A stretch of DNA of 64,000 nucleotides. Source: an uncultured Enterobacteriaceae bacterium. GTDB taxonomy: Bacteria; Myxococcota_A; UBA9042. The DNA is taken from the NCBI GenBank assembly GCA_964586155.1, contig CAZPHC010000006.1, positions 141,392-205,391 on the forward strand, given 5' to 3'. Both the position numbers and the translations under genes were made by a program. Positions 3,678-39,298 of the stretch are shown here, one piece after another. The notes under the pieces were generated by a model. The model was not told the DNA's origin, did no database searches, and saw only the letters and a list, made by a program, of their open reading frames with translations. The stretch's first letter is position 1; each line of letters begins with the position of its first letter.

Positions 3678-3818
3678 TCCCGCCGTGTCGCGGTCGCCTG
3701 CTCTTGGCGACCTGGCGCGGCGGCCGCTGGTGATGCGGACCGTCGCTGGATCCGGGCGCGATTGCGCTCGACGCCGACGCGCGGGCCTTCCGTCGCGTCG
3801 TCCGACGGAGATACGCAG

Positions 3819-6763: not shown

Positions 6764-10425
<3,662 letters not shown>

Positions 10426-13493: not shown

Positions 13494-13685
13494 GTGGTCT
13501 CCTTCTGGCCCGCGCCAGGCCGGCGCAGGGCCGCGGAGGATTCCGAGAACTCCGCCCCCTGTCAAGGCGGCCAGACCCCATCCCCCGAGGCGCGATCTGG
13601 CGTCCCGTTGCTGAGATCCGCTACGCTCGGGCAGGCCGCCCAGCTGGGGTGGCGATGGCCGCTCGCCAGCGGCGCCGGAGGACAC

Positions 13686-19203: not shown

Positions 19204-22077
<2,874 letters not shown>

Positions 22078-22239: not shown

Positions 22240-23826
22240 TCAGGGGCGGAATGGCTCGGCCAGTGCCCCGGGAGCGCGGCGCCAGGCCGGCGTGTAGTAG
22301 CGACCGGGCGGCAGCGCCAACGCTTCGCGCACGGCGCCGTCGTGGCTGGCGAACCAGACGCGGGTGCCAGCGCCGTCTTCGTCGGAGACGTAGATGACGC
22401 GGCGGCCGCAGCTCGACCACGTCGGCTCCAGCGAGCGCTTGCCGCGGCCCGGCGTCAGGCGCTGCATCTGCTTGTTGGCGTCGACCGTCAGGATGTCCAC
22501 CGCCGATCCGCGCAGGCCCGAATAGACGATGCGGCCGTTGACGCCCCAATCGGGGCCGGTGTTGTACTGGCCGGCCCAGGTGAGGCGGCGGACGTCGCTG
22601 CCGTCGGCGTTCATCACGTAGATCTGCGGCGTGCCGCTGCGGTTCGAGACGAAGCCGATCTGGCGGCCGTCGGGCGACCAGGTCGGATCGAGGTCGTCGG
22701 CCTCGTGCTTGGTCAGGTTCTTGGCCGGGCGGCCCTTGGCATCCAGCAGCCAGAGGTCCGCTTGGTCGCCGTCGTTGATCGTCGCGACGATCTGGCCCGC
22801 CGGGCCGGCGGCGGCCGTGCGGTACTGCAGCTCGTCGCTGGTGGCGAAGGGCTTGGGCACCGTGACGTTGTGCGCGCCGATGGTGCCGTCGGCCGGTGGC
22901 GCCGTGGTGCGCGAGCCCGGCCGCTGCACCGAGGCCTTGCGGCCGCCCTTCTTCGGTGGCTCGGCGAAGGGGTTGGTCTGGCGCGAGGCTGGCGTCACGA
23001 GGTCCGGCGCCTGGCTGTAGATCTGCTCGACGTCGGGTCCGTCGATGCGAAAGAGCGAGGGCAGGTCGGTGCGGAAGCTGACGTAGGCCACGCCGAGGTC
23101 CGCCGACGGCCGCGGCAGCATGTGCACGCCCTTGTCGCCGACCAGCACGCGCGCGTTGTAGCCGTCGGCGTCGGCCATCCAGATGGCGCGATCGACGCCC
23201 GGCGCCGGCGAAGAGTAGAAGAATTGGCCGTCGAAGCTGCCCATCACTCCGGTCAGCGCGCCGAACACGACGTTGCTGACCTTGTGCGCGACACGCCGCA
23301 TCTGGTTCGCCGGGCCGGTCACGATGGCGTGGCGGCCGAGCTCGACGGCGTTGCCGTCACGCACGTCGATCATTTGGATATGCACCTCGACGCCGTCGGC
23401 GACCGTCTTGGACTTGCGCGCCCAGAGGCCGACCGCCCAGACCACGTCGGCCTTGCGGGCCTGGTCGAGGTGGATCTCGAAGTTGGGCACCGAGTAGCGC
23501 TGGATCGCCGCGCGCTGCGCCAGCGGCACAGGCAGCGCGCGGACGACGCCGGACAAGCGCATGTCGTTGTGCACGACCATCTCGAGCGTCTCGCACCACG
23601 CCTTCTGCGGGCCGCAGGCGACCGGCATCACGAGCAGGCCGTCGAGTGGCCGCTGCGTCGCCTCGACCACGACGTAGAGGCCGTCGGTGGCGGCGTCTCC
23701 GCCGCTGAGGGCCGGCGTCGGCTGCGCCGACGCGGCCAGGGGCAGACCGGCGAGCGCGAGGCCCACCAGCGCAGCCACGCCCAGGAACCGCCGACGCCAG
23801 GGACGTCGGCCAACGACCGCGCTCAT
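22240..23826 (-). CDS. tolB: TolB-like periplasmic beta-propeller protein
   Basis: Start at M216 of ORF 22240..24471, with GAGGAG RBS. Signal peptide MSAVVGRRPWRRRFLGVAALVGLALAGLPLAASA. TolB N-domain-like region (KVSNVVFGALTGVMGSFDGQFFYSS) then PD40 repeats (WSPDGRQIGFVSNRSGTPQIYVMNADGS). Start overlaps the stop of the HD gene (ATGA). Confidence 0.75.
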   Translation of the reverse strand: MSAVVGRRPWRRRFLGVAALVGLALAGLPLAASAQPTPALSGGDAATDGLYVVVEATQRPLDGLLVMPVACGPQKAWCETLEMVVHNDMRLSGVVRALPVPLAQRAAIQRYSVPNFEIHLDQARKADVVWAVGLWARKSKTVADGVEVHIQMIDVRDGNAVELGRHAIVTGPANQMRRVAHKVSNVVFGALTGVMGSFDGQFFYSSPAPGVDRAIWMADADGYNARVLVGDKGVHMLPRPSADLGVAYVSFRTDLPSLFRIDGPDVEQIYSQAPDLVTPASRQTNPFAEPPKKGGRKASVQRPGSRTTAPPADGTIGAHNVTVPKPFATSDELQYRTAAAGPAGQIVATINDGDQADLWLLDAKGRPAKNLTKHEADDLDPTWSPDGRQIGFVSNRSGTPQIYVMNADGSDVRRLTWAGQYNTGPDWGVNGRIVYSGLRGSAVDILTVDANKQMQRLTPGRGKRSLEPTWSSCGRRVIYVSDEDGAGTRVWFASHDGAVREALALPPGRYYTPAWRRAPGALAEPFRP

Positions 23827-25130
23827 CTCGACTCCTCGCCGCCGCGTAGCTCGAGTACCCAAGCTGCGGCGCGCTCCATGTCCTGTTCGGCGACGTAGGT
23901 TCGTTCCATGCGTGTCGTCTCTGCGTACCGCTGGAACAGCGCCGTCGCCTCGCCGAGCGGCAGCGTGTGACCAGCGCCGACGCGCGGCTGGATCTGTACA
24001 TAGATAGCACGATCGCCGGCGCCGCGATCGCGGTATTTCGAGAGCGCACCATGGCTGGTGACGCGGAAATGATCGATGCCGTGGGCGCTCAGGCGCGCCT
24101 CGAGCCGATCGAGATCGTCGTCGCGGCCATGCCAGCCACGCTCGGCGAGCAGCGGCAGCGGCCGGTGCTGCACGATCGCCGCCGCCCAGCGCGAACGAGG
24201 CGCCGCGGCGCGCAGCTTGGCCCAGAGCGCGCCGTCGTCGAAGCCGACGAAGGCCTCGGGGTCGGTCGGTACCGTCAGGTCGGGCTCTTCTTCGTAGTAG
24301 CGGCGCAGCATGTGGTCGTAGCAGACCACCTTGGGGTGGAAGTAGACCATCAGGAACATGTGCATCCGGCTGAGCAGGAAGTCGTCGAACGTGTAGAGCG
24401 CACGATCCTGCAGCGCCAGCCAGACGCGGCCCTGCTCGTCCTCGTGGCGACCGAGGTGGCCGATCAGCCACGACGCGTCGAACTTGCCGTAGCTGACGCC
24501 CGAGAAGTAGCTGTCGCGCTGCAGGTAGTCCATGCGGTCGACGTCGAGCTCGCCGGAGCAGAGCGTCGCGAGCAGGGGCCGCAGGTCGCGGCCGGCGACC
24601 GAGAACGGCGCGTCGTCGAGGGCGACGCCGTCGTGCAGCAGGGCCGTGACGTGGCGGGCGCGCACGCCGAGCGGGCGTCCGGCGCGATCGACCGCGTCGC
24701 CGAGGGCCGAGTCGAGCAGGAGCTTGACCGTGTAGTGCTCATGCCGCGCCTGCCGCGCGGGGTTGCCGATGTCGACGCCTTGCAGGCCGAGGGCGCTGCG
24801 CGCGGGGAACAGCACCTCGGACGAGTGCGACAGCGGCGCGTGGCCCACGTCGTGCAGCATGCCGGCGAGGCGCAGCGTCTGGCGCAGGCGCTTGCGTTCG
24901 TCGGACGAGAGCCAGGCGGCGTCGCCGAGCGCCGCGTCGAAGGCCAGGCCAGCGAGGTGCATCACGCCGATCGAATGCAGCAGGCGGTTGTGGCACGCGC
25001 CGGGGAACAGCAGCTCCGCGAAGCCGAGCTGCTTGACGTTGCGCAGGCGCTGGAACAGCGGCTGGGCGAAGACGGCGACCTCGACCTCGGTCAGCCCGAT
25101 CGGCCCGTGGATCGGATCACGGATCTCCAT
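23823..25130 (-). CDS. HD-domain phosphohydrolase (dGTPase/SAMHD1-like dNTP triphosphohydrolase family)
   Basis: 435 aa from ATG (frame-checked) with GAGGAGG RBS. MEIRDPIHGPIGLTEVEVAVFAQPLFQRLRNVKQLG..HNRLLHSIGV...GMLHDVGHAPLSH...D shows the HD motif and the family-typical N-terminus. Confidence 0.8.
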   Translation of the reverse strand: MEIRDPIHGPIGLTEVEVAVFAQPLFQRLRNVKQLGFAELLFPGACHNRLLHSIGVMHLAGLAFDAALGDAAWLSSDERKRLRQTLRLAGMLHDVGHAPLSHSSEVLFPARSALGLQGVDIGNPARQARHEHYTVKLLLDSALGDAVDRAGRPLGVRARHVTALLHDGVALDDAPFSVAGRDLRPLLATLCSGELDVDRMDYLQRDSYFSGVSYGKFDASWLIGHLGRHEDEQGRVWLALQDRALYTFDDFLLSRMHMFLMVYFHPKVVCYDHMLRRYYEEEPDLTVPTDPEAFVGFDDGALWAKLRAAAPRSRWAAAIVQHRPLPLLAERGWHGRDDDLDRLEARLSAHGIDHFRVTSHGALSKYRDRGAGDRAIYVQIQPRVGAGHTLPLGEATALFQRYAETTRMERTYVAEQDMERAAAWVLELRGGEESR

Positions 25131-27243
25131 TGGCTCGACCTCCTCGTCCACTCGGATCGCCTCGGCCAGCCGGTGGCCCCGCGTCGTCGCGAGCCCCTGT
25201 ACCACCATCGCCGGGCTGCCGCCATTGTTCCGCACAGAGCGCGGCGGCGGCGGCCAGCGCCGGGTCATCGTGACCCGCACCGACCAATTCGCATCGGCGC
25301 GAGATCTGGTGCGCCACCTGCACGGCGAGGCGTTGGGCCCGGAGATCCGGGGCGGGAGCGTCCGGCGCTGGCGCCGCGTCCAGGCGTGCCCGAAGGGCCA
25401 GCAGCCTGCGCAGCGCCGCATCGGGGCGCCCGGCGTGGTCGTCGGCCCAGCAGGCCGCCGCCACCCAGCGGGGCTCGCTGTCGGCGTCGACGCCGTGATC
25501 TCGGGCCCATTGCAGCGCGAGCGCGTCCTCGCCCGCCGCGATCGCCGCGACGTAGACGCGCTGCGCCAGCTCGGCGTCGGCGCGGCGGATGCCGCGGCCT
25601 GCCTGCCACGCCTGGTCGAAGCGCTTGCAGCGCATCGCGTCGTCCAGCACGGCGACGCGCGCGGCGTCCTCGTCACCGGCGGCCAGCAGCTGCTCGGACC
25701 AGACCGCGCCCAACGTGCACGCGTCGCTGCGTGTCGCGGCCTGCAGGGCCAGCACCGCGACCGCGCGATCGGTCGGCGCGATGTCGCGGGCGGCTCGCAG
25801 CTGCTCCAGCGCAGCACCCGCCGCGCCGCGCTCCAGCAGCAGGCGGCCGAGGTTGTAGCGCATCTTGACGCTGCGAGGCTGCAGGCGCGCGCCGCGGACG
25901 AAGAGCCTGTCCTCGCTTTGCCAGTCGGCCGCGACCGCGCGCGTCGCCGGGATCGCCAGCGCCAGGCCGAGCGCGACCGCGGCGCTGAGGGCCAGCGCGA
26001 GCAGCAGCCGCCTCGGGCCGGTCGCGTCGTCGAACGAGCGCGCCGCCCCCGACCGACGCAAGCGCCATCGCTGCTCGACCGGCGACCACGCGCCGCCCAC
26101 GGCCGCGCCGAGCAAGGCGCAGAGGCCAAGCGAGGGCAGCCAGAGCAGCCGGTCGGCGGTGACCAGCGACGCCGGCACGATCAGCTGCGAGACGGGCGCC
26201 CAGAACGCCGCCGCCGTCAGCAGCCCGAGCGCCAGCGACGCCGTCGTCGGCGAGACCTCGGCGCTGTGCCCGACCGCGTCCCAGCCGGCGCCGAGCAGCC
26301 GGGCGAGCGCGACGGCCAGCCCAGCGAGCGCGACCAGGGCGATCGCGGCCCCCGCCGCGAGTTCGGTCGCCGGCGGCGCGAGCAGGGGCAGGGCGTCGAA
26401 GCTGTAGTCCGGCGCGAGCAGGTCTGGCGTGACCAGGCGCTGGGCGGCGTGCCAGACCAACCACAGCCCGGCGCGCCAGCGCTCGTCCAGCGCCGCGTCC
26501 CACAGCGGGTTGTCCTCGCGGGCGATGGTCGGCGCCGGCACCCAGGCGAGGCGCATCGCCGCCCAGGCGACGCAGATCACGAGCAGCCCGCCGACGAGCG
26601 CCGCCGCCTCGCGCTTGGTTCGACCGGGGACCACGACGGCGATCAGGGCCAGCGGCGCCAATCCGGCCAGGGCGGATTCCTTGGCCAGGAGCGCGAGCGC
26701 CAGGGCGAGCGCCGCGAGCAGGCCGGCGGCCTCGCGCTGCAGCAGAGCGTGGGCGGCCAGCAGCAGCAAGCACGCGGCCAGCGCCTCGGGGCGGTTCGAG
26801 ATCGCCATCACCGCCTCGGCGTGGGCCGGCAAGGCGGCGAACGCGACGCCTGCGACCACGCCTGCGGCCGTGCTGCTCGCCATCGGGACGCGCCACAGGG
26901 CGCCGAGGCGGACGACCAGCGCTGCCAGCAGCGCCGCCGCCAGCGCCGCCAGGCCGATCGAGACGAGGTGCCGCGTCGCGAGCCGCAGGTGCAGGCCGTC
27001 CTCGACGGCGAAGCTCAATGTCGCCAGCGGCCGCGACACACCCTGCAGCGACCAACGCGGCGCGGGCCCGAACCACGGGCTCTGCAGCAAGGGCAGCGGC
27101 TCGGGCGGCCAGTGCGCGAGTGGGTTCTCGAGCACCGCAGGGACGTCGTCGAGCACCCAGCCCGCGTCCCGCGCCAGGTCGGCGTAGATGCCGAGCGTGG
27201 TGCCCAGCGCCAGGATCGCCGCGACGGCGACGCCGAGCTTCAT
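25117..27243 (-). CDS. TMTC-like GT-C fold glycosyltransferase (DUF1736/PMT-related) fused to C-terminal TPR repeats
   Basis: 708 aa from ATG overlapping the rodA stop. First loop WVLDDVPAVLENP, then VSRPLATLSFAV, then FAALPAHAEAVMAISNRPEALAACLLLLA. These line up with eukaryotic TMTC motifs VHDDVWAIVNNP, SYRPLCVLSF and FAVHPIHTEAVAGIVGRADVLACLLFLLA. More than 10 TM segments and a TPR-like C-terminal 250 aa. Confidence 0.75.
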   Translation of the reverse strand: MKLGVAVAAILALGTTLGIYADLARDAGWVLDDVPAVLENPLAHWPPEPLPLLQSPWFGPAPRWSLQGVSRPLATLSFAVEDGLHLRLATRHLVSIGLAALAAALLAALVVRLGALWRVPMASSTAAGVVAGVAFAALPAHAEAVMAISNRPEALAACLLLLAAHALLQREAAGLLAALALALALLAKESALAGLAPLALIAVVVPGRTKREAAALVGGLLVICVAWAAMRLAWVPAPTIAREDNPLWDAALDERWRAGLWLVWHAAQRLVTPDLLAPDYSFDALPLLAPPATELAAGAAIALVALAGLAVALARLLGAGWDAVGHSAEVSPTTASLALGLLTAAAFWAPVSQLIVPASLVTADRLLWLPSLGLCALLGAAVGGAWSPVEQRWRLRRSGAARSFDDATGPRRLLLALALSAAVALGLALAIPATRAVAADWQSEDRLFVRGARLQPRSVKMRYNLGRLLLERGAAGAALEQLRAARDIAPTDRAVAVLALQAATRSDACTLGAVWSEQLLAAGDEDAARVAVLDDAMRCKRFDQAWQAGRGIRRADAELAQRVYVAAIAAGEDALALQWARDHGVDADSEPRWVAAACWADDHAGRPDAALRRLLALRARLDAAPAPDAPAPDLRAQRLAVQVAHQISRRCELVGAGHDDPALAAAAALCAEQWRQPGDGGTGARDDAGPPAGRGDPSGRGGRANGDP

Positions 27244-28355
27244 CCGCGCGCCCGCCGGCGCAGCGCGACGTTCAGCACCAGCCCGAGGCTCATCATCACC
27301 GTGAGGACGCTCGAGCCGCCGTAGCTCATCAGCGGCAGCGTCATGCCGACCACCGGCAGCAGGCCGATGACCATCCCGGCGTTGATGAAGAATTGCCAGA
27401 AGATCAGCGACGCCGCCCCGACGCAGACCAGGGCGCCGAACCGGTCTGGGGCGTGGTCCGCGACGTGGAGCGCCCACCACAGCACCCCCCCGAACGCGCC
27501 AAAGAGCCCGAGCGTGCCGAGCAGGCCGAACAGCTCGGCCCACGACGCCAGCGCGAAGTCCGTGTACACGAACGGAAGGTGGCGCAAGACCGAGCCGCGC
27601 GCGTCGTCGAGGCTGCGACCCGTCCAGCGGCCCGAGCCGACGGCCCAGAGCGCCTGCTCTGGCTGGGACGCCGGCGCGCTGCGGCGCTGCTGCACCGCCT
27701 CCTCGTCGAGCTCGAACCACGCGGCGACGCGGCCCTTCTGGTAGTTGTGGACTAGCCCCGAGCGCCAGGCCAGCGGCACGCCGAGCACCGCGACCAGCAG
27801 CCCGAGCATCAGCGTCCGGCGCGACACGCCTTCGTACAGGATGACGCTGCTGGCGATCAGCGCGACACAGAGCGAGGTGCCCAGGTCGGGCTCGCGGTTG
27901 ATCAGCACGACCGGCACGAGCATCAGGCCGATCGGCACGACGAGCCGACGCAACGTCCACAGCTCGGTGGTGCGCGCGCGGTCGAACCAGTCGGCCAACG
28001 TCAGCACGACAGAGAGCTTCATGAACTCGGATGGTTGCAGTCTCATCGGCCCGAGCTCGATCCAGCGCTTGCTGTGGTTGATCTCGCGGCCGAAGAGCAA
28101 CACCGCGAGCAGCAGCAGCACGAGGCCGACGTAGGCGGTGCCGGACAGCCGCCGCAGCAGGTCGAAGTCCATGATGGCGATGAGGCCCGCCGCGACCGCG
28201 CCCGCGACCAGCCAGACGGCCTGCACCCGGTGGAACGACGTATCGCCGAGCGTGTCGATGAACCAGAGGTTGAACATCGCGGCGGCGCAGAGCGCCAGCA
28301 GCGAGCCGAGGCCGACGAGGTTCGACGGCCGGCGCAGCTCCCGGGCCATGCTCAT
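27240..28355 (-). CDS. rodA: Rod shape-determining protein RodA (SEDS family peptidoglycan polymerase)
   Basis: 371 aa from ATG (frame-checked) with GGAGG RBS. Polytopic membrane protein with FtsW/RodA blocks (LVHNYQKGRV, LPFVYTDFALASWAELFG, GLLPVVGMTLPLMSYGGSS). Confidence 0.9.
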   Translation of the reverse strand: MSMARELRRPSNLVGLGSLLALCAAAMFNLWFIDTLGDTSFHRVQAVWLVAGAVAAGLIAIMDFDLLRRLSGTAYVGLVLLLLAVLLFGREINHSKRWIELGPMRLQPSEFMKLSVVLTLADWFDRARTTELWTLRRLVVPIGLMLVPVVLINREPDLGTSLCVALIASSVILYEGVSRRTLMLGLLVAVLGVPLAWRSGLVHNYQKGRVAAWFELDEEAVQQRRSAPASQPEQALWAVGSGRWTGRSLDDARGSVLRHLPFVYTDFALASWAELFGLLGTLGLFGAFGGVLWWALHVADHAPDRFGALVCVGAASLIFWQFFINAGMVIGLLPVVGMTLPLMSYGGSSVLTVMMSLGLVLNVALRRRARG

Positions 28356-30529
28356 GGCGCCTCCGGGGCTGCGGGCGACGGCGCGGCCTGGCCCGCTCGA
28401 CGGGCGAAGTAGCGGTTCATGATCCGATTGACGACCGGGGCGGCGACGTGGCCGCCGGAGCCGCCGTGCTCGACCAGCACCGCGACGACGATCTCCGGGT
28501 TGGTCGTGGGCGCGTAGCCGACGAACCAGGCGTGGTCCTCCTGCATCCAGCGCTGGATGTCCGGCGGCGCATCGGCCGGCGCCCGCTGCGCGGCTTCGGC
28601 GGTGCCGGTCTTGCCGGCCATCGTCACGCCCTCGAGCTTGGATTTGTGGGCCGTTCCGACGTCCGACTCGACCACGGCGCCGAGCGCGAGCTGCAGCTGT
28701 CGCACGGTCTCCTTGCGCAGGCCCATCGACGTCGGCTCTGCGCGACCCAGCGGAGCCACCGCCTCGCCAGCGGCTTCGAAGCGATCGAGCAGCGTGATGT
28801 TCGGCAGGCTGCCGCCGCGAGCGATGCCGGCATAGACGCGGGCGACCTGCAGCGGCGAGGCGGTCACGTCCTTCTGGCCGACCGCTGTCGAGAGCGCAAA
28901 CCCGGGGAAGTAGCGACCACTCTGCTTGGTGTACCACTCCTTGGTCGGCAGGTGCCCCGTGGTCTCGCGGATCTCGATGCCCGTCGCGACGCCGAAGCCC
29001 ATCTTGCGGCCGTATTGCTCGAGGGTGTCGATGCCGAGCGCCTCGCCGACCTTGTAGAAGTAGACGTCGCAGGACTGCGCCAACGCCGTGCGCAGATCGA
29101 CCTCCCCGTGGCCGCTGTGCTTGTGGCAGCGGAAGCGCCTGCCGCCGAACTCGTAGAACCCCGGGCAATGGTGCGTCGTCGCCGGCGTGACCAGGCCTTG
29201 TTCGAGCGCAGCGGCCGCCGCGACCACCTTGAACACCGACGCCGGCGGGAAGGGGTGCACCGCCTTGTTCAGCAGCGGTGCGAACGGGCTGGAGTCGACC
29301 CGCGCCTTGCGCTCGGCCGTCAGCCGCCCGGACCAGGCGTTCGGATCGAACGAGGGCTTGGAGTACATCGCCAGCACCTCGCCGGTGCGCACGTCGATGG
29401 CCACCGCTGCGCCCGAGTGGATGTGCGCCATGGCGACCTTGACGTCGCGTTGCAGCGCCAGGTCGAGGGTCAAGCGCGCCGACAGGCCCGGGATCGTCGG
29501 CTTCGGCGCCATCGCCTCGAGCAATTCGGCGATGTCGCCGCGCTCCTCGCGACCCCGACGCCGCACCAGCACCTCTTCGCCGTCGATGCCGCGAAGCAAG
29601 GCGTCGAGACCGGACTCGATGCCGGTGCGGCCGATGCGATCGTCGAGGTCGAAGCGGGGCGGGCCGCCTTCTTCGAGCGGGCGCAGGTCGCGCTCGTTGA
29701 CGCGGCTGGTGTAGCCGAGCACGTGGCTGGCCAGGTAGCGGTACGGGTACTCGCGCTGGATCTCGGTGCGGACCCGCGCTTCGGGCAGCAGGTGCGCGTT
29801 GCTGCGCAGCCGCGCGACCTCGTCGTCGAAGCTGCGGCCGCACATCGGGCAGCGCAGGATGTGGTGGCCGTGGTGCATCGGCGTGTCGTCGTAGGGGCAC
29901 GCCTGCGCGGCCGAGAACTCGCGGCTGCAGGTGGGGCAGTGCACGCCGTCGCCGTTGCCGCTCGGCACGAGCTTCTTGCGATCGACCGGGCAGGTCGGTT
30001 TGCTCGGCATCGGCTCGTAGGAGCGGCCGCAGGTCGTACAGAACGCGTAGGCCGTCTCGCCGACCAGCTCCAGGCGGTGGCTGTCGTAGGGGCAATGGGT
30101 CGAGACCAGGTCGCGCCGGACCACGACGGGCTTGCGCCGCTGCGTGCCCTCGGGTTTGCGCAGCTCGGTCAGCACGCCCGTGACCTCGGCGTCCGTGAGG
30201 TCCAGCAGCGAGCGCAGCGTCTCGGCGATCGGCGCGATGCGGTCTTCCTTGACCCGGTGCGGCAAGATCTCCAGGCGATGGCTCTCGATGTTGCGCGCGA
30301 GCACCTCGCCGTCGCGACCGAGCACCAGGCCGCGCGGTGCCGACGCCTTGACCTTGGACACGCGCTCGATCGCCGCGAATTGCTCGTACCGCTCGCCCCG
30401 CACGACCTGCACCAACAGCAGCCGCGCCGAGAGCAACAGCACGCCGGCCACGACGATCGCGACGCCGACGCGGTTGCGCGTCTCGTAGGCCTTGCTGTCG
30501 TGCGTATCGCCGATCTGGATGTGCTGCAT
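28352..30529 (-). CDS. mrdA: Penicillin-binding protein 2 (elongasome transpeptidase) carrying an unusual 95-aa Cys/His-repeat insertion
   Basis: 725 aa from ATG (frame-checked), overlapping the mreD stop. TM anchor. Pedestal and dimerisation blocks (YPYRYLASHVLGY). Transpeptidase motifs SVFK, SCD-like, KTGTAE. Insertion at residues about 146-240 holds three CPxD-x15-CxxC repeats with His. Confidence 0.9.
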   Translation of the reverse strand: MQHIQIGDTHDSKAYETRNRVGVAIVVAGVLLLSARLLLVQVVRGERYEQFAAIERVSKVKASAPRGLVLGRDGEVLARNIESHRLEILPHRVKEDRIAPIAETLRSLLDLTDAEVTGVLTELRKPEGTQRRKPVVVRRDLVSTHCPYDSHRLELVGETAYAFCTTCGRSYEPMPSKPTCPVDRKKLVPSGNGDGVHCPTCSREFSAAQACPYDDTPMHHGHHILRCPMCGRSFDDEVARLRSNAHLLPEARVRTEIQREYPYRYLASHVLGYTSRVNERDLRPLEEGGPPRFDLDDRIGRTGIESGLDALLRGIDGEEVLVRRRGREERGDIAELLEAMAPKPTIPGLSARLTLDLALQRDVKVAMAHIHSGAAVAIDVRTGEVLAMYSKPSFDPNAWSGRLTAERKARVDSSPFAPLLNKAVHPFPPASVFKVVAAAAALEQGLVTPATTHHCPGFYEFGGRRFRCHKHSGHGEVDLRTALAQSCDVYFYKVGEALGIDTLEQYGRKMGFGVATGIEIRETTGHLPTKEWYTKQSGRYFPGFALSTAVGQKDVTASPLQVARVYAGIARGGSLPNITLLDRFEAAGEAVAPLGRAEPTSMGLRKETVRQLQLALGAVVESDVGTAHKSKLEGVTMAGKTGTAEAAQRAPADAPPDIQRWMQEDHAWFVGYAPTTNPEIVVAVLVEHGGSGGHVAAPVVNRIMNRYFARRAGQAAPSPAAPEAP

Positions 30530-31068
30530 CAGCGATCCAGGCTTCGGCGCGGTCGATCGGGCAGCGCGCGCATCCGGTCGCGGGTGGCGAAGCTGCCGCC
30601 CACGCGGTCGTAGAGGCCGAAGATCAGGGGCGCGAGCACCATCGTGCCGAGCGCCATCGATGGCGACGCGCGCAACACCTCCTCGAAGGCGTCGAAGCTG
30701 CGGTGGAAGATCGCCTCGAAGGCCAGGAACACCGCCACCGCCCCGAACGTGGCGCCACCCGCCGCCGCCATCGTCGGCAGCGCGCTGGTCAGGTCGACGC
30801 GGCGGCCGAGCAGGCGCGTGACGACGAAGGTCAGCGCGCCGATCTCGGTGAAGATGCCGACCGGCGCCGCGAGGCAGAAGGCGTCCTTGGCCAGGCCGAG
30901 GCCGGCGGCGCAGAGCAGCCCGAGCGTCCAGCTGCTGCGGCTGCCGAGATAGAGCGCCGCCAGCACCAGCAGGTCGGGCGCCAGCCACCAGCGGTCGATC
31001 TGGCGCAGCAGCGGCGCTTCCATCGCCAGCAGCGCGATCGTCAGCAGGACCCAGGCAACGTGCTTCAA
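30529..31068 (-). CDS. mreD: Rod shape-determining protein MreD
   Basis: 179 aa. Small polytopic membrane protein immediately downstream of mreC and overlapping the mrdA start. Typical MreD size and hydrophobicity profile. Confidence 0.7.
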   Translation of the reverse strand: MKHVAWVLLTIALLAMEAPLLRQIDRWWLAPDLLVLAALYLGSRSSWTLGLLCAAGLGLAKDAFCLAAPVGIFTEIGALTFVVTRLLGRRVDLTSALPTMAAAGGATFGAVAVFLAFEAIFHRSFDAFEEVLRASPSMALGTMVLAPLIFGLYDRVGGSFATRDRMRALPDRPRRSLDR

Positions 31069-31188: not shown

Positions 31189-32118
31189 TCAGCCGTCTGG
31201 CACGTTGGCCGGATCGGTCCGCACCTTGGGCAGCTTCGCGGCCTCTGGCACCGGCAGGTCGCGCGCCGGCGCTTCGTAGCCCGTGACGATCAGGACTTCT
31301 TCGAGCGTCGCGAAGGTCACGGCCGGCGTCAGCGTGTACTCGATGTACGGGCCCTGGCGGCTCGGCGCGGCGGTGGCGACGTGGCCGATCTCCAGCCCTG
31401 GCGGGAACACCCGATCGTGGCCCGTGGTCAGCACCGCGTCGCCGGGCTCGATCGCCTGCTGCTGCTCTGCGCGTTCGAGGTGGACGAATTCGGCACCGAA
31501 CTCGCCGGCCTTGCCCTTGCCGCGGGCGGTGCCGATGACGCCCTTGCCCGAGATCGTCGTATGCGCCGCCGAGCGGGCGTCGGTGATCAGCATGACGTCG
31601 GCGTAGTTGCCGGCCAGCTTCTCGATCCGGCCGACGACGCCATCGTGGGTGACGACGGCCTGGCCCTCCTTGACCGCGTCGCTGCCCTCGACGTCGAGGC
31701 GCACCCGCAGCACGCGGAAGAACTGGCTCACCTCGCGGCCGACGACGCGCGCCGGCAGCGTCTTGAGCTCGCTGCGGCTCTCGCGGAACTCGCACAGGCG
31801 CTTGACCCGGCGCAGCTCCTCGGCCAGCGCGCGGCTACGCAGGGCCTCGCCGAGCAGCTCGCGGTTCTGCGCCTCGAGCTCGACCGAGCGCGCGCGCACG
31901 TCGATCAGGTCGATGTAGCCGGTCCACACGCCGATGCCCGCCTCGAGCATGCCGTCCGCCACGCCGACCAGCGGGCTCGACACCCGCAGCAGCCCGCGCT
32001 CGAGCAAGGTGCTACCGTCGCGCGGCTTGCCGTGGACGTACATCGAGACCAGGGGCAGCAGCAGCGTCAGCAGCGTCAGCAGCCGTCGACCGTGGCGTCG
32101 CAGCAGGGCCAGGATCAC
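31189..32118 (-). CDS. mreC: Rod shape-determining protein MreC
   Basis: 309 aa. GTG start overlapping the stop of the upstream ORF. N-terminal TM, coiled-coil (LEAQNRELLGEALRSRALAEELRRVK), and beta-rich C-terminal domain typical of MreC. Confidence 0.85.
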   Translation of the reverse strand: MILALLRRHGRRLLTLLTLLLPLVSMYVHGKPRDGSTLLERGLLRVSSPLVGVADGMLEAGIGVWTGYIDLIDVRARSVELEAQNRELLGEALRSRALAEELRRVKRLCEFRESRSELKTLPARVVGREVSQFFRVLRVRLDVEGSDAVKEGQAVVTHDGVVGRIEKLAGNYADVMLITDARSAAHTTISGKGVIGTARGKGKAGEFGAEFVHLERAEQQQAIEPGDAVLTTGHDRVFPPGLEIGHVATAAPSRQGPYIEYTLTPAVTFATLEEVLIVTGYEAPARDLPVPEAAKLPKVRTDPANVPDG

Positions 32119-32636
32119 GCCGCACCGCCGTGGTCGCGCCCCGTGCCAGCAGGGTCGGCCTCGGTCGCGCGCACCGGCGCGACGTCACGCGTGGCCTCGG
32201 CCCAGGCCGCCTCGCGTTGCCGAGCGTTGTCGCGCCGGGCGCTGCGGGCCCGCGGCGCCACGGCGACGAGGTGGGTGACGATCAGCAGCGCCACCGCGAC
32301 CTCGAGCCCGACAGAGACCCACAGCCAGGGCTCGGCGCGGCCGACCTGCAGCGCGCCCAGCGAGGGCGTCGCCCGATCGGCCAGCAACGCCGCCCAGGCC
32401 AACACCACCGCGACCGAGACGAGGCCGGCGGCGCTGCGGCGCACCAGGGTCACGCGCGCGCCGAGGCGGCCGTAGTTGGTCAGGACGATGGCGGAGGTCA
32501 GGCCCATCAGCGCGTAGACCCACCAGTCTTCGGCGTTGGCCAGGCGGGCGCGCCAGGCGGCGAGGCCACCAGCCAGGACGTGCAGCACCACGGCGACCGC
32601 CACCAGCAACGAATCGATGCGCAGCAGGCGGCGCAA
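32115..32636 (-). CDS. Small hypothetical membrane protein translationally coupled to mreC
   Basis: 173 aa with four predicted TM helices. Stop overlaps the mreC GTG start (GTGA). No family assignment. Confidence 0.45.
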   Translation of the reverse strand: MRRLLRIDSLLVAVAVVLHVLAGGLAAWRARLANAEDWWVYALMGLTSAIVLTNYGRLGARVTLVRRSAAGLVSVAVVLAWAALLADRATPSLGALQVGRAEPWLWVSVGLEVAVALLIVTHLVAVAPRARSARRDNARQREAAWAEATRDVAPVRATEADPAGTGRDHGGAA

Positions 32637-32782: not shown

Positions 32783-33133
32783 TCAGGGCTTGTAGTTGTA
32801 CTTGCTGAAGTTCTTCTGCACCTGGTCTTCGGTCGGCGCGGCGCCCTTGCGCACGTTGGCCACGGTGAACTCGCTGGAGTTCTCGGCCATCTTGTAGTTG
32901 AGGGCGATGTCGTCACCGAACAGGCTCGGCACTTCGTCCTCTTCGAAGATCGCGCGCCACGGGCAGGCCGGCTCGCAGTTGGTGCAGTCGATGCACTCGT
33001 CCGGGTTGATGTAGAGCTGGTTGGCCCAGCCGCCCGCGTCGCCGCTGTGCTCGTAGATGCACTCGACCGGGCAGACGTCGGCGCAGGCGGTGTCCTTGCA
33101 CTCGACGCAGAGGCGGGTGATGATGTAAGCCAT
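32783..33133 (-). CDS. fdxA: 7Fe ferredoxin (Azotobacter FdI type, 3Fe-4S plus 4Fe-4S)
   Basis: 116 aa. MAYIITRLCVECKDTACADVCPVECIYE...YINPDECIDCTNCEPACPWRAIFEEDEVP lines up with Azotobacter vinelandii FdI cluster ligands. Confidence 0.9.
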   Translation of the reverse strand: MAYIITRLCVECKDTACADVCPVECIYEHSGDAGGWANQLYINPDECIDCTNCEPACPWRAIFEEDEVPSLFGDDIALNYKMAENSSEFTVANVRKGAAPTEDQVQKNFSKYNYKP

Positions 33134-33192
33134 CGATCTGACTCCGTAGTTGGCGGTTCATCCCGCCGAGGGCGACGCGGCGTGCGCGTCGG

Positions 33193-34287
33193 TTAGGCAA
33201 CGGGCGCGGCTGCAGGCAGCGCCGCGACTATCGCCGCCGCCATGGCCCTTGTCGAGGCCCGACCGCCGTGGTCCGGCGTCGTGACAGCGGAATTGGCGAG
33301 CACCACGCTGGTGGCCCGGCTGATGCGCGCGGCGGCGTCGTGCTCGCCGAGGTGGCGCAGCAGATCGAGCGTCGGCATCAGCAGCGTCAGCGGGCTGGCC
33401 GCGGGCGCGCCGTGCTCGTCGGCGACCAGGCCGACGTGATGCGTCGCCTCGAAGACCTCGACCCGCTCGCCGCTGCCCGGGACGCGGCCCGAGTTGTGGC
33501 TGGTGACCAGGCTGGGCGAGCCGACCACGCCGGCGCCGATATCGGCCAGGATGTCGCCGAAGAGGTTGCCAGCGACCAGCACGTCGAAGCGCTCGGGCCG
33601 CGCGACCAGCTGCATCGCGGCGTTGTCGGCGATGATGTCGTCGAACGCGATGTCCGGGTACTGCGGCGCGATCTCGCGGCCGATGCTGCGGAACAGGCCG
33701 TCGCTGCGCTTCATGATGTTGGCCTTGTGCACCAACGTCACGCGCTTGCGCCCCAGGCGGCGGGCCAGCTCGAAGGCGTGGTGGATCACCGCCTCGCTCT
33801 TGGCCCGCGTCAGCACCTTGATGGTCTGGACCACGCCAGGGACGATCTCGTGCTCGATGCCGGCGTAGATCTCCTCGGTCAACTCGCGGACGAGCAGCAC
33901 GTCGACGCCGTCGTAGCGGCTCGGCACGCCGTCCAGGTTGCGCAGGGCGCGGACGCCGGCGTAGATGCCGAGCCGCTTGCGCAGCTGCACGTTCGGGCTG
34001 ACGTAGCCGCCGCCGACCGGCGTGCGCAGAAGCGTCTTGACCGCGAGGCCGACGTCGCGGATCGCCTCGACCGTCGACGCCGGCATCGGATCGCCGCAGA
34101 GCTCGATCGAGCGCACGCCAGCCGGCACGAACTGCCAGTCGATGGCGACGCCCGCGGCCGCGACGATCTCGCAGACTGCGTCGCCGAGCGCCTCGCTGAT
34201 GGGGCCGGCCTTGAGCATGACGACGCGCGGCGCGCCGCTCGGGGTCGGGTGGGCTGCGGGAGCCTGGGTCCGGGCCTGCTCGCTCAT
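33193..34287 (-). CDS. Isocitrate/isopropylmalate dehydrogenase family protein (NAD-IDH-like, paralog B)
   Basis: 364 aa. Blocks TPVGGGYVSPNVQLRKRLGIYAGVRAL, ANIMKRSDGLF, NLFGDILADIGAGVVG. 4-nt overlap with the upstream paralog. Confidence 0.8.
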   Translation of the reverse strand: MSEQARTQAPAAHPTPSGAPRVVMLKAGPISEALGDAVCEIVAAAGVAIDWQFVPAGVRSIELCGDPMPASTVEAIRDVGLAVKTLLRTPVGGGYVSPNVQLRKRLGIYAGVRALRNLDGVPSRYDGVDVLLVRELTEEIYAGIEHEIVPGVVQTIKVLTRAKSEAVIHHAFELARRLGRKRVTLVHKANIMKRSDGLFRSIGREIAPQYPDIAFDDIIADNAAMQLVARPERFDVLVAGNLFGDILADIGAGVVGSPSLVTSHNSGRVPGSGERVEVFEATHHVGLVADEHGAPAASPLTLLMPTLDLLRHLGEHDAAARISRATSVVLANSAVTTPDHGGRASTRAMAAAIVAALPAAAPVA

Positions 34288-35294
34288 GCCGCCTCCTTCA
34301 TCGCCGCGATGATGGCGTCCTGGAACTGGATCGTCGTCGCCTTGCCGCCGAGGTCGCCGGTGCGGACCTGGCCCTTGGCGAGCACCGACAGCAGCGCGCG
34401 CTCGACGCGATCGGCCGCGGCGCGCTCGCCGATGTGGCGCAGCATCAGCACCGCCGACTGGATCAGCGCGGTCGGGTTGGCCACGCCCTTGCCGGCGATG
34501 TCGGGCGCCGAGCCGTGCACCGCCTCGAACACCGCGTAACGATCGCCGATGTTGGCGCCGGGGACGACGCCGAGGCCGCCGACCAGGCCCGCGGCGAGAT
34601 CGCTGAGCACGTCGCCGTAGAGGTTCTCCATCACCAGGCAGTCAAATTGCGTCGGATCGAGCACCAGCTCGCGCACCACGTCGTCGACGAGCATGTCGTT
34701 GTGGCGCAAGAAGGGGTACTCGTCCGCGATCTTGCCGAACGCGTTGAGGAAGAGCCCGTCCGAGAGCTTCATGATCGTCGCTTTGTGCACCAACGTCAGC
34801 GACTGGCGACCCTCGGCCCGGGCCCAGGTGCTGGCCCAGCGGCAGATGCGGTTGCACGCCGTCTCGGTGATCACGCGCAGCGTCTCGACCACGCCGGGCA
34901 CGGGCTCGTGCTCGCGGCCGGCGTAGAGGCCCTCGGTGTTCTCGCGGAAGATCACGAGATCGACGTCGTCGTGGCGGGTCTTGATGCCCGGGATGCTGCG
35001 CACCGGCCGCAGGCTGACGTAGAGATCGAGTGCCTGGCGGATGGCGACGTTGACGCTGGTGAAGCCCGTGCCGACCGGGGTCGTGATCGGGCCCTTGAGC
35101 GCGACCCGGGTGCGCTCGATGGTGCGCAGCGTCTGGTCGGGCAGGGGCGTGCCGTGGCTGTCGACCGCGCCGGCGCCCGCGGGCATCCGCAGCCAGTGGA
35201 TGTCGACGCCGGACGCCGCGAGCACGGCCACGGTCGCGTCACTGACCTCCGGGCCGATGCCGTCGCCGGGCAGCAGGGTCAGCTCGTAGGTCAT
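34284..35294 (-). CDS. Isocitrate dehydrogenase (NAD-dependent or homoisocitrate-DH-like, paralog A)
   Basis: 336 aa. TPVGTGFTSVNVAIRQALDLYVSLRPV, ATIMKLSDGLF, NLYGDVLSDLAAGLVGGLG contain the isocitrate-binding Ser/Arg, catalytic Lys/Tyr and metal Asp residues. Confidence 0.85.
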   Translation of the reverse strand: MTYELTLLPGDGIGPEVSDATVAVLAASGVDIHWLRMPAGAGAVDSHGTPLPDQTLRTIERTRVALKGPITTPVGTGFTSVNVAIRQALDLYVSLRPVRSIPGIKTRHDDVDLVIFRENTEGLYAGREHEPVPGVVETLRVITETACNRICRWASTWARAEGRQSLTLVHKATIMKLSDGLFLNAFGKIADEYPFLRHNDMLVDDVVRELVLDPTQFDCLVMENLYGDVLSDLAAGLVGGLGVVPGANIGDRYAVFEAVHGSAPDIAGKGVANPTALIQSAVLMLRHIGERAAADRVERALLSVLAKGQVRTGDLGGKATTIQFQDAIIAAMKEAA

Positions 35295-36177: not shown

Positions 36178-36301
36178 ATGCGGGCCGTTTGGCCACGCGC
36201 GCGTCGGCGGGGTTGCGCCTGTGGCCCCCCAACCCTACCTTGTGCGGCCAGATTTTGCGCCTCGGCCGGCCTCGCCGCCGGGGCGCGCGCGGGAAGCTGC
36301 C

Positions 36302-39298
<2,997 letters not shown>

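What the first reader, a model, noticed from the sequence alone, without database searches (positions are those of the whole stretch)
29810..30094. PBP2 (MrdA) carries a 95-aa insertion of three tandem Cys3-His mini-modules in its periplasmic pedestal region
Between the conserved N-terminal pedestal blocks (…VVRRDLVSTH and LLPEARVRTEIQREYPYRYLASHVLGY…) the protein contains CPYDSHRLELVGETAYAFCTTCGRSY, CPVDRKKLVPSGNGDGVHCPTCSREF and CPYDDTPMHHGHHILRCPMCGRSF. That is three repeats of CPxD-x(13-15)-CxxC-x-R/S-x-F/Y, each also containing His. This looks like three Zn-ribbon-like knuckles or disulfide-stabilised knots. It sits in the part of PBP2 that contacts MreC and RodA in known structures. E. 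coli PBP2 has nothing comparable here.
Basis: seen in the sequence. Interest (0 to 1): 0.6.

Follow-up and report, generated by a model that had tools for sequence, protein, structure and literature searches.

The report
Triple zinc-ribbon insert in PBP2
The cell-elongation transpeptidase PBP2 of an uncultured group of Myxococcota carries, in its periplasmic "head" next to where the partner protein MreC docks, three tandem mini-domains that look like zinc ribbons; the insert is real, conserved and apparently undescribed, but its function is unknown.

Summary
PBP2 is encoded on the minus strand (28352-30529, 725 aa) in an mreC-mreD-pbp2-rodA operon. It carries a clean ~90-aa insertion (aa 146-235, window 29825-30094) that E. 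coli and P. aeruginosa PBP2 lack.

The insert is three homologous repeats (hhalign probability ~98%). About 95 protein clusters from uncultured Myxococcota share it. They form one clade, and its sister clade carries a single module. dN/dS in the insert is 0.03.

The conserved signature is not Cys3-His. It is C-P-x-D ... C-x-x-C-G-R-x-F/Y. The three Cys and the Asp are 90-100% conserved, with swaps to His, Asp or Glu, while no His is conserved. AlphaFold2 models the insert as confident beta-hairpins (pLDDT 90-96). Every weak sequence or fold match is to a zinc ribbon, and none reaches a family threshold.

The other three Cys plus His474 align with the known zinc site of the PBP2 transpeptidase domain. 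All 12 Cys therefore fall into four putative tetrahedral sites.

The insert sits in the head beta4-alpha3 loop. By extrapolation, this is next to the H. pylori MreC-contact residues.

Metal binding and function are inferred, not shown. I rate it a new variant of a known kind, of moderate interest.

The parts
28352..30529 (-). pbp2 (mrdA) gene, 725 aa plus stop. Its start overlaps the mreD stop and its stop overlaps the rodA start.
   Evidence: ORF and translation. TIGR03423 scores 525 bits against a cutoff of 455. Pfam PBP_dimer and Transpeptidase. Best PDB matches are MrdA structures.
30401..30484 (-). N-terminal transmembrane helix (aa ~16-43). It places everything downstream, including the insert, in the periplasm.
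   Evidence: AF2 model helix 16-43. Standard class B PBP topology is established knowledge.
29825..30094 (-). The insertion: aa 146-235, three tandem zinc-ribbon-like modules in the head-subdomain loop between strand beta4 (aa 135-138) and helix alpha3 (aa 237-243).
   Evidence: Alignments to solved PBP2s. Multiple alignment of 117 PBP2s. AF2 pLDDT 90-96, all beta. dN/dS 0.032.
30017..30094 (-). Module 1, aa 146-171: CPYDSHRLELVGETAYAFCTTCGRSY. Putative ligands C146, D149, C164, C167.
   Evidence: C146, P147, D149 and C164 are 79/79. C167 is 72/79, otherwise Asp or Glu. The ligand quartet is CDCC in 86/95 sequences.
29915..29992 (-). Module 2, aa 180-205: CPVDRKKLVPSGNGDGVHCPTCSREF. Putative ligands C180, D183, C198, C201.
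   Evidence: C180 and C198 are 79/79. D183 is 73/79 (His in 5). C201 is 78/79. CDCC in 85/95 and CHCC in 5/95.
29828..29899 (-). Module 3, aa 211-234: CPYDDTPMHHGHHILRCPMCGRSF. Putative ligands C211, D214, C227, C230.
   Evidence: C211 and C227 are 79/79. D214 is 76/79. C230 is 75/79. CDCC in 86/95. Module-to-module hhalign probability is ~98%.
29801..29821 (-). Helix alpha3 of the head (aa 237-243), directly after the insert. By offset it corresponds to the H. pylori PBP2 segment that holds the MreC 'hydrophobic zipper' residues Tyr127'/Tyr134'.
   Evidence: AF2 DSSP. H. pylori chain index equals residue number (window S486 matches Ser366'). H. pylori residue 150 matches window 258. Zipper residues are from PMC5626683. 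The mapping assumes no gaps over 22 residues, so it is an inference.
29069..29167 (-). Putative fourth metal site, in the transpeptidase domain: C455, C468, H474, C487. C487 is the X of the SxN/D motif S486-C-D488.
   Evidence: These residues align column for column with the A. baumannii PBP2 Zn ligands D350, D365, H371, C384 (ligands from PMC9974482). C468 and H474 are invariant and C455 and C487 are >=90% conserved in 117 PBP2s.
30529..31068 (-). mreD-like gene (179 aa, no Pfam hit) in the conserved operon position.
   Evidence: Position and conservation in L001-L010. A weak MreD Pfam hit on the L014 homologue. No Pfam hit here.
31189..32118 (-). mreC (309 aa).
   Evidence: Pfam MreC, E 4e-28. 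Syntenic in related loci.
27240..28355 (-). rodA (371 aa).
   Evidence: Pfam FTSW_RODA_SPOVE, E 5e-75. Start mapped.

Best explanation
The insert is a periplasmic array of three homologous zinc-ribbon-type mini-domains. It arose by triplication of a single module that had been inserted into the beta4-alpha3 loop of the PBP2 head subdomain.

Each module most likely holds one structural metal ion, probably Zn2+. The ligands would be a C-P-x-D knuckle and a C-x-x-C knuckle that flank a beta-hairpin, giving Cys3-Asp coordination.

Together with the C-C-H-C version of the known transpeptidase-domain zinc site, the protein would bind four metal ions and would have no unassigned cysteine.

The array forms a rigid, metal-stabilised protrusion beside helix alpha3, the face of the head that the anchor covers and MreC docks onto in H. 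pylori PBP2. Its most likely role is to extend or modulate a protein-protein docking surface of the elongasome, for MreC or a clade-specific partner. This would resemble the way the inserted UB2H domain of PBP1B docks LpoB.

Shown here: the insertion, its repeat nature, its conservation, purifying selection, the predicted fold class and the insertion site.
Inferred: metal binding, the identity of the metal and the docking role.
For: Insertion and site:
- define the cassette and its position.

Repeat nature:
- Module-versus-module hhalign gives probability 97.7-97.9% and E ~1e-12.

Ligand conservation:
- C, D, C, C are 90-100% conserved in each module across 79 sequences.
- 257 of 285 modules have the canonical CDCC quartet.
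- About half of the exceptions swap one metal ligand for another: D to H in at least 3 lineages, D to E, and C167 to D/E.
- The 10 single-module relatives all keep CPxD...CxxC.

Cysteine count:
- There are three Cys per module, nine in the insert. An odd number fits badly with disulfide pairing.
- The remaining three Cys map to the known PBP2 Zn site (PMC9974482; PMC9334274).

Predicted structure:
- AF2 gives pLDDT 90-96 for the insert, all beta-hairpins. The insert modelled alone gives pLDDT 83.

Database resemblances are all to Zn ribbons or knuckles:
- Foldseek: PriA Cys-rich region, Pirh2 CHY, p44, MetRS, TFIIB, Rpa12, NudC.
- Pfam: Zn_ribbon_6 in 22/31 members, plus ADK_lid, HypA, TFIIB, Trm112 and TiaS ribbons.

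Periplasmic precedent:
- The two HMBD domains of the CusB-like protein in the same window have the same pattern, C-x-x-D/H...C-x-x-C-G. They align in register with the modules.

Selection and evolution:
- dN/dS is 0.032 in the insert against 0.052 in the transpeptidase domain.
- The triple-module proteins are monophyletic, with the single-module clade as sister.

Location:
- The site lies next to the MreC zipper residues.
- The gene sits in the canonical mreC-mreD-pbp2-rodA operon, so this is the working elongasome PBP2.
Against: - No metal was measured.
- The periplasm is oxidising and cysteine-rich zinc ribbons are rarely reported there. I found no published example of one.
- Some lineages have lost one or two ligands in a module (P0022, P0077/80/81, P0136, P0137), so not every site is indispensable.
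- The docking role has no direct support. MreC length and domain content look ordinary, and no partner gene co-occurs with the insert.
- The mapping onto the H. pylori zipper residues assumes an ungapped 22-residue stretch.
Confidence: 0.55

Rival explanations
1. The modules are metal-free, disulfide-stabilised beta-hairpin knots. DsbA oxidises the cysteines in the periplasm and the insert is simply a rigid structural decoration.
For: The insert is periplasmic (TM helix 16-43). H. pylori PBP2 has a disulfide near the active site (PMC5626683). The cysteines of B. subtilis SpoVD equivalent to the Zn site were interpreted as a disulfide (PMC9334274). I found no published periplasmic zinc ribbon.
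Against: There are three Cys per module and nine in total, so at least one stays unpaired in each module or overall. The Asp of CPxD is as conserved as the cysteines and is exchanged for His or Glu. C167 is replaced by Asp or Glu, not by a hydrophobic or small residue. Both knuckle motifs, C-P-x-[D] and C-x-x-C-G, match the classical zinc-ribbon signature, and all weak matches are to Zn proteins.
Confidence: 0.2
2. The array is a zinc- or redox-sensing switch. Loss of Zn or oxidation of the thiolates unfolds the ribbons next to helix alpha3. This changes head-anchor opening or MreC docking, and so couples cell elongation to periplasmic zinc supply or oxidative stress.
For: It rests on the same evidence for metal sites as the best explanation. 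Both papers on the transpeptidase-domain Zn site proposed redox or zinc regulation for that single thiol-containing site (PMC9974482; PMC9334274). Here there would be four sites and 12 thiolate or carboxylate ligands, three of the sites beside the MreC-docking face.
Against: It is purely inferential. Structural zinc ribbons are usually inert. Some lineages tolerate degenerate modules. No linked redox or zinc-homeostasis gene is specific to insert-bearing loci: a thioredoxin gene follows rodA both in a locus with the insert and in one without it.
Confidence: 0.15
3. One reading: each module is a Cys3-His site.
For: Each module of this particular protein contains at least one His. The insert is His-enriched, 5.4% against 3.1% in the rest of the protein. 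His replaces the Asp in 5-6 modules of other sequences.
Against: No His column is conserved: H145 57/79, H197 40/79, H223 61/79. The His positions also differ between modules: before the first Cys in module 1, before the CxxC in module 2, and four residues before it in module 3. The Asp at the canonical second-ligand position of the first knuckle is 92-100% conserved.
Confidence: 0.05
4. Sequencing or assembly artefact, or a decaying pseudogene segment.
For: Two database fragments look damaged. P0001 is an ORF truncated inside module 2 and was seen on 23 contigs. P0002 fuses modules 2-3 to a thiolase C-terminus on a 1.3-kb contig.
Against: Full-length in-frame copies occur in about 95 clusters from independent assemblies. 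dN/dS is 0.032. The DNA repeats are diverged. The AF2 model is confident.
Confidence: 0.01

Closest known systems
Canonical PBP2/MrdA of Gram-negative bacteria (E. coli 6g9f/8tj3, P. aeruginosa 7kis, A. baumannii 7zg8, H. pylori 5lp4/5lp5)
   Same: Same family (TIGR03423 above cutoff). Same anchor-head-linker-transpeptidase fold (Foldseek E 1e-42 to 1e-49). Same catalytic motifs S431xxK434, S486xD488 and K640TG. Same mreCD-pbp2-rodA operon.
   Different: About 90 extra residues in the head beta4-alpha3 loop, where E. coli has 2-3 residues. None of the solved PBP2s has a domain there.
Transpeptidase-domain Zn site of class B PBPs (A. baumannii PBP2 D350/D365/H371/C384; C. difficile PBP2 D515/D528/H538/C551)
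   Same: It is a precedent for an extracytoplasmic, thiolate-containing structural Zn site in PBP2. The window protein has the homologous site as C455/C468/H474/C487 (PMC9974482 and PMC9334274).
   Different: That site is one metal next to the SxN motif in the catalytic domain. The insert would add three further sites in a different domain (the pedestal head), built from autonomous ribbon modules. Neither paper describes this.
Generic zinc ribbons (TFIIB, TFIIE-alpha, Trm112, TiaS, NudC, YfgJ 'double zinc ribbon' PF07191)
   Same: Two knuckles (C-P-x-X and C-x-x-C-G) flank a beta-hairpin. The module is ~26-30 residues. All weak sequence and fold matches fall in this class.
   Different: The second ligand is Asp rather than Cys. 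The location is periplasmic. Three modules sit in tandem inside an enzyme loop. No family threshold is reached.
HMBD heavy-metal-binding domain (PF19335) of CusB-like periplasmic adaptors, present in this same window at 5114-6763
   Same: It is a periplasmic mini-domain of ~28 aa with the same ligand pattern. The two copies here read C-S-M-D...C-P-I-C-G and C-P-M-H...C-T-V-C-G. The four positions align in register with the PBP2 modules (hhalign probability 42-66%).
   Different: The Pfam HMBD model does not hit any module, even at E<=10. The spacer is shorter and the conserved M-x-P and G-M residues are absent. I treat it as an analogue, not a demonstrated homologue.
Cys3-Asp zinc knuckle sites: the Bacillus subtilis adenylate kinase lid (C130, C133, C150, D153) and the second site of LIM domains (from my own knowledge, not checked here)
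   Same: Three Cys plus one Asp in a C-x2-C ... C-x2-D type knuckle pair. Pfam ADK_lid gives sub-threshold hits to 10/31 inserts.
   Different: Those sites are cytoplasmic. The Asp is in the other knuckle. They are single sites.
UB2H domain of E. coli PBP1B and ODD of PBP1A (lineage-specific insertion domains that dock the activators LpoB and LpoA; established knowledge)
   Same: A clade-restricted domain inserted into a peptidoglycan synthase, away from the active site, at a regulatory surface. This is the functional analogy behind the docking hypothesis.
   Different: Different fold, different enzyme class (class A PBP) and no metal. A partner for the PBP2 insert is unknown.

Membership tests
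PBP2 / MrdA (NCBIfam TIGR03423) | Whole-protein score above the curated equivalog cutoff | tested here: met
   525.4 bits against a cutoff of 455, in two stretches split at the insert.
PBP2 / MrdA (NCBIfam TIGR03423) | Catalytic motifs SxxK, SxN/D and KTG of the transpeptidase domain | tested here: met
   S431, K434, S486, K640 and G642 are invariant, and D488 and T641 are >=90% conserved, in 117 aligned PBP2s.
PBP2 / MrdA (NCBIfam TIGR03423) | Elongasome gene context (mreC, mreD, rodA) | tested here: met
   Pfam MreC and FTSW_RODA_SPOVE hits on the flanking genes. The order is conserved in L001-L010 and L016.
PBP2 / MrdA (NCBIfam TIGR03423) | Transpeptidase activity and beta-lactam binding | not testable with these tools
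   Needs a bocillin-binding or cross-linking assay.
Zinc ribbon (generic fold class) | Two knuckles that supply four metal ligands | tested here: met
   C-P-x-D and C-x-x-C are present in all three modules. The ligand quartet is CDCC in 257/285 modules. One ligand is Asp rather than Cys.
Zinc ribbon (generic fold class) | Beta-hairpin architecture between and after the knuckles | tested here: met
   AF2 DSSP gives strands 154-163, 170-172, 188-190, 195-197, 204-206 and 219-226, with no helix in the insert and pLDDT 90-96.
Zinc ribbon (generic fold class) | Significant match to a curated zinc-ribbon family or a solved ribbon | tested here: not met
Zinc ribbon (generic fold class) | Bound Zn2+ with tetrahedral geometry | not testable with these tools
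It needs ICP-MS, a structure, or AF3 with ions.
Rad50 zinc hook (PF04423) | Full hook: a CxxC half-site at the apex of a coiled coil, shared between two chains | tested here: not met
   The 113-aa fragment scores 29.9 bits against a cutoff of 24.3, but the match covers only profile positions 21-33 of 52 (the CPxCGR motif). The full protein and the single modules score below the cutoff. There are no flanking helices.
C2H2 zinc finger | A beta-hairpin CxxC followed by a helix with HxxxH | tested here: not met
   There is no helix in the insert and no conserved His pair. The many eukaryotic C2H2 arrays found by the profile search match only the CxxCG[KR]xF knuckle.
HMBD heavy-metal-binding domain (PF19335) | Match to the Pfam model | tested here: not met
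   No hit for any module at E<=10. Only a weak profile-profile alignment was found (probability 42-66%).
Zn-binding class B PBPs (transpeptidase-domain site of Micelli 2023 and Sacco 2022) | Four ligand residues at the homologous positions around the SxN motif | tested here: met
   C455, C468, H474 and C487 align with A. baumannii D350, D365, H371 and C384.
Zn-binding class B PBPs (transpeptidase-domain site of Micelli 2023 and Sacco 2022) | Zn occupancy | not testable with these tools
   Needs ICP-MS or a structure. The homologous cysteines could instead form a disulfide, as reported for H. pylori PBP2 and proposed for B. subtilis SpoVD.

The most novel reading that the evidence does not exclude
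The three periplasmic Cys3-Asp zinc ribbons form a regulatory module built into the MreC-docking face of PBP2. One version is a zinc- or redox-gated switch that controls head-anchor opening, and so RodA-PBP2 activation. The other is a docking site for a clade-specific elongasome regulator, analogous to UB2H-LpoB. Either version would be the first regulatory metal domain described in the pedestal of a class B PBP, and an example of zinc ribbons working in the oxidising periplasm.
Probability: 0.2. Interest if true: 0.75.

Novelty: new variant of a known kind. Interest (0 to 1): 0.55.

Why it matters
The pedestal head of PBP2 is where MreC is thought to switch the RodA-PBP2 synthase on. How that switch is tuned in different bacteria remains an open question.

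A natural PBP2 with a conserved, strongly selected 90-residue domain grafted at the edge of that surface is a ready-made probe of the mechanism. Deleting or mutating the insert should show whether the head surface tolerates or uses extra mass.

If the modules bind zinc, this PBP2 would carry four metal sites. That would extend the recent finding that zinc stabilises PBP2 in A. baumannii and C. difficile from one site in the catalytic domain to a whole metal-dependent domain. It would also give a clear case of cysteine-based zinc ribbons outside the cytoplasm.

The limits are real. The clade is known only from metagenomes. Metal binding and function are unproven. The building block, a zinc ribbon inserted in a loop, is a common evolutionary device.

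Tried and rejected
- **Wrong frame or coordinates.** Searches failed and were repeated correctly.
- **Insert plus flanks as the only query (145 aa).** The word-indexed protein search returned only two damaged fragments, P0001 and P0002. The full-length query was needed to find the family.
- **Profile search of the insert against 1.84 billion representatives.** It gave 1401 hits, but apart from about 15 PBP2 representatives they are eukaryotic C2H2 zinc-finger arrays that match only the CxxCG[KR]xF knuckle. I rejected them as homologues. No non-PBP2 bacterial protein with the triple module was seen among the 150 listed.
- **orf173 as a candidate partner.** This conserved membrane protein lies upstream of mreC. 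I rejected it as a partner linked to the insert, because distant insert-bearing loci (L014) and single-module loci (L012) have mreB there instead.
- **Net charge and pI of the insert.** Both are neutral and uninformative.
- **Literature searches.** I searched for a described zinc ribbon in PBP2 or the pedestal, and for periplasmic zinc ribbons. Nothing relevant turned up. The only hits were cytoplasmic ribbons of LetA and GltJ. A search for the adenylate kinase Cys3-Asp site found nothing usable, so that comparison rests on memory.
- **HMBD, Rad50 hook and C2H2 membership.** Tested and not met.
- **E. coli equivalents of the MreC zipper residues.** PMC7793260 did not list them. The H. pylori mapping is therefore an offset extrapolation.
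Full report
**What is there.** The finding lies on the minus strand. They are residues 146-171, 180-205 and 211-234 of a 725-aa ORF at 28352-30529.

The protein is PBP2/MrdA:
- NCBIfam TIGR03423 scores 525 bits against a cutoff of 455.
- Pfam finds PBP_dimer and Transpeptidase.
- The best PDB relatives by sequence and by fold are MrdA structures.
- The SxxK, SxN/D and KTG motifs are present.

The gene sits in an operon with mreC (31189-32118), an mreD-like gene (30529-31068) and rodA (27240-28355). Start and stop codons overlap between neighbouring genes. The same order recurs in ten related metagenomic loci. An AlphaFold2 model built on 117 homologues is confident (mean pLDDT 92.5, pTM 0.87). 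It shows one N-terminal membrane helix (aa 16-43), so everything downstream is periplasmic.

**The insertion is real and clean.** In phmmer alignments to P. aeruginosa and E. coli PBP2, query residues 137-234 face about five residues of the solved proteins. When I removed aa 146-235, the remaining pedestal aligned colinearly with E. coli PBP2 residues 57-235, leaving only a two-residue gap at the junction. That places the insert at about E. coli T139-V141.

In the model, the insert lies between the short head strand beta4 (aa 135-138) and helix alpha3 (aa 237-243). This matches the head-subdomain description for A. baumannii PBP2 (PMC9974482).

The DNA copies of the modules are only 67-74% alike over 27 nt. 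Against a 95%-identical relative, the insert shows 21.7 synonymous and 3.3 non-synonymous differences, giving dN/dS 0.032. The transpeptidase domain gives 0.052. So the insert is neither an assembly artefact nor a decaying segment.

**Distribution and origin.** A search with the full protein found about 80 clusters at 38-95% identity, 700-820 aa long, that carry all three modules. The source labels that exist read Myxococcota, Myxococcales or Deltaproteobacteria MAG. The next-best PBP2s (about 610-670 aa, including Bradymonadaceae and other Myxococcales) have nothing at this site. All genome-collection hits were MAGs.

A profile of the insert, searched against 1.84 billion representatives, recovered about 15 PBP2-type representatives. 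The rest of the hits were eukaryotic C2H2 arrays that share only the CxxCG[KR]xF knuckle.

A neighbour-joining tree built from non-insert columns puts all 79 triple-module proteins in one clade with no insert-less member. P0084, which has a single module, is the sister. A search seeded with P0084 found at least nine more single-module PBP2s, all CPxD...CxxC. Profile-profile comparison shows that the three modules are homologous to each other (probability about 98%, E about 1e-12). The simplest history is one ribbon inserted into the loop and later triplicated. The tree has no bootstrap support and is midpoint-rooted, so this is a reasonable inference rather than a proof.

**What the modules are.** Across 79 sequences, conservation of the candidate ligands is as follows:

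| Module | First Cys | Asp of C-P-x-D | Third position | Fourth position |
|---|---|---|---|---|
| 1 | C146 79/79 | D149 79/79 | C164 79/79 | C167 72/79 (Asp in 6, Glu in 1) |
| 2 | C180 79/79 | D183 73/79 (His in 5) | C198 79/79 | C201 78/79 |
| 3 | C211 79/79 | D214 76/79 | C227 79/79 | C230 75/79 |

P147 is also 79/79. No histidine is conserved: H145 is 57/79, H197 is 40/79 and H223 is 61/79, and these lie at non-equivalent positions in the three modules.

In an extended set of 95 proteins, 257 of 285 modules have the quartet C-D-C-C. About half of the exceptions exchange one metal ligand for another (CHCC, CECC, CDCD, CDCE).

The conserved signature is therefore C-P-x-D-x(12-14)-C-x-x-C-G-R-x-F/Y. 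This is the classical pair of zinc-ribbon knuckles with Asp in place of the second cysteine. It is not Cys3-His.

The model gives beta-hairpins with pLDDT 90-96 in context and about 83 in isolation. Fold searches of the isolated insert found nothing significant. Even so, practically every weak match is a zinc ribbon or knuckle:
- Foldseek: PriA cysteine-rich region, Pirh2 CHY, p44, MetRS, TFIIB, Rpa12, NudC.

Pfam behaves the same way. Zn_ribbon_6 matches 22 of 31 inserts. ADK_lid, HypA, and the TFIIB, Trm112 and TiaS ribbons match some. All are below their gathering scores. The only hit above its cutoff is Rad50_zn_hook, which covers just the 13-residue CPxCGR motif.

**Cysteine book-keeping.** The protein has 12 cysteines, nine of them in the insert. 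The other three, with His474, align column for column with the zinc ligands of A. baumannii PBP2: C455 with D350, C468 with D365, H474 with H371, and C487 with C384. C487 is the X of the SxN/D motif (ligands from PMC9974482). The same site in C. difficile PBP2 is D515/D528/H538/C551 (PMC9334274).

All 12 cysteines can therefore be assigned to four tetrahedral sites with none left over. Disulfide pairing would leave an odd cysteine in every module. This is the main argument for metal sites over disulfide knots, alongside the conserved Asp and the ligand-for-ligand substitutions.

It remains an argument, not a measurement. The periplasm is oxidising. H. pylori PBP2 has a disulfide near the active site. 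I found no published periplasmic zinc ribbon.

The window itself offers one periplasmic precedent for the ligand pattern. The CusB-like adaptor at 5114-6763 has two Pfam HMBD domains that read C-S-M-D...C-P-I-C-G and C-P-M-H...C-T-V-C-G. They align in register with the PBP2 modules, but weakly (hhalign probability 42-66%). The HMBD model does not hit the modules.

**Where it sits functionally.** In the H. pylori PBP2-MreC complex, MreC wedges between head and anchor. It contacts Leu69', Phe71', Tyr127' and Tyr134' of the head, and the anchor covers these residues in the closed form (PMC5626683).

The H. pylori chain index equals the residue number, because window S486 aligns with Ser366'. H. 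pylori residue 150 aligns with window residue 258. If the 22 residues in between are ungapped, as they are against E. coli, then Tyr127' and Tyr134' correspond to about window residues 235 and 242. That is the C-terminal junction of the insert and helix alpha3.

Contact with RodA was not tested. I could not read the model coordinates, so I do not know the orientation of the array relative to the anchor, MreC or the membrane.

**Mechanism.** The best-supported reading is a rigid, metal-stabilised, three-ribbon protrusion beside the MreC-docking face. It would extend or modulate a protein-protein surface of the elongasome. This is analogous to the lineage-specific UB2H and ODD insertion domains of class A PBPs that dock LpoB and LpoA (established knowledge).

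No partner emerged. MreC is of ordinary length and domain content. The conserved membrane protein orf173, upstream of mreC, is not linked to the insert in distant loci.

A more adventurous reading is a zinc- or redox-sensitive switch. Both papers on the transpeptidase-domain zinc site speculated along these lines for that single site. Some lineages tolerate degenerate modules, which argues that not every site is essential.

The feature is a new variant of a known kind: a canonical PBP2 with an undescribed, clade-restricted, strongly selected triple zinc-ribbon domain in its regulatory head. I found no description of it in the searchable literature. Database annotations list only the two standard PBP domains.

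Interest is moderate (0.55). The architecture is unusual and sits at an interesting surface. But metal binding and function are unproven, and the hosts are uncultured.

Noticed in passing
window 29069-29167 (minus strand; PBP2 aa 455-487): The transpeptidase domain carries a C-C-H-C version (C455, C468, H474, C487) of the Zn site described as D-D-H-C in A. baumannii and C. difficile PBP2. C. jejuni PBP2 (8yjx) has the same C-C-H-C pattern. C468 and H474 are invariant, and C455 and C487 are >=90% conserved, in the 117 aligned delta/Myxococcota-type PBP2s. This suggests the site is far more widespread than the beta/gamma-proteobacterial distribution reported.
   Followed up: partly
window 32115-32636 (minus strand): A 173-aa multi-pass membrane protein with no Pfam hit lies directly upstream of mreC, where mreB normally sits. 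It is conserved in that position in L001, L002, L004-L006, L009 and L010 (35-56% identity). It is absent from more distant loci (L012, L014, L015), which have mreB there. It could be a clade-specific elongasome component.
   Followed up: partly
window 32783-35294 (minus strand): In this clade mreB is not in the operon. Upstream of orf173 lie a 116-aa 4Fe-4S ferredoxin and two isocitrate/isopropylmalate-dehydrogenase-like genes. L016 shows the same arrangement.
   Followed up: no
window 3762-10425 (plus strand): A CusCBA-like heavy-metal efflux cluster. It has an outer-membrane factor (OEP, 3762-5117), a CusB-like adaptor with two HMBD domains (5114-6763; motifs CSMD...CPIC and CPMH...CTVC), and a long downstream ORF that is probably the RND pump (no Pfam hit in the frame I tested). 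The HMBD ligand pattern mirrors the PBP2 modules.
   Followed up: partly
window 12402-15743 (plus strand): A 1113-aa cysteine-rich repeat protein with many C-x-x-D/C-x-x-C spacings. It has weak Pfam hits to Somatomedin_B and the Dictyostelium CTDC repeat. It is probably a secreted, disulfide-rich myxobacterial repeat protein, which would suggest the organism has an active oxidative folding system in the envelope.
   Followed up: no
proteins P0001 and P0002 (database fragments): P0001 is a 217-aa ORF that ends by frameshift inside module 2 and is reported on 23 contigs. P0002 fuses modules 2-3 to the C-terminal domain of a thiolase on a 1.3-kb contig. These are likely assembly or frameshift errors in this GC-rich repeat region, but a recurrent truncation is not excluded.
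   Followed up: no
window 30527-30531 and 28352-28355 (minus strand): The mreD stop overlaps the pbp2 start (TGATG), and the pbp2 stop overlaps the rodA start (ATGA). This suggests translational coupling of the three genes.
   Followed up: no
window 35657-39298 (plus strand): A SecA ORF of 1213 aa in which the SecA DEAD domain starts only at residue 222. Either the listed TTG start is too far upstream or SecA has a long N-terminal extension.
   Followed up: no
window 19204-22077 (minus strand) and 22240-24471 (minus strand): Downstream of the operon region lie a 957-aa Ser/Thr protein kinase (kinase domain aa 205-468) and a PD40/TolB-like beta-propeller protein. L016 has the same neighbours (Tricorn/PD40, Pkinase).
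   Followed up: no
loci L004, L005, L009 (record titles): Three MAG records that carry this Myxococcota-type operon are titled 'uncultured Enterobacteriaceae bacterium' (binchicken and SRP co-assemblies). This is almost certainly a taxonomic mislabel in the public records.
   Followed up: no
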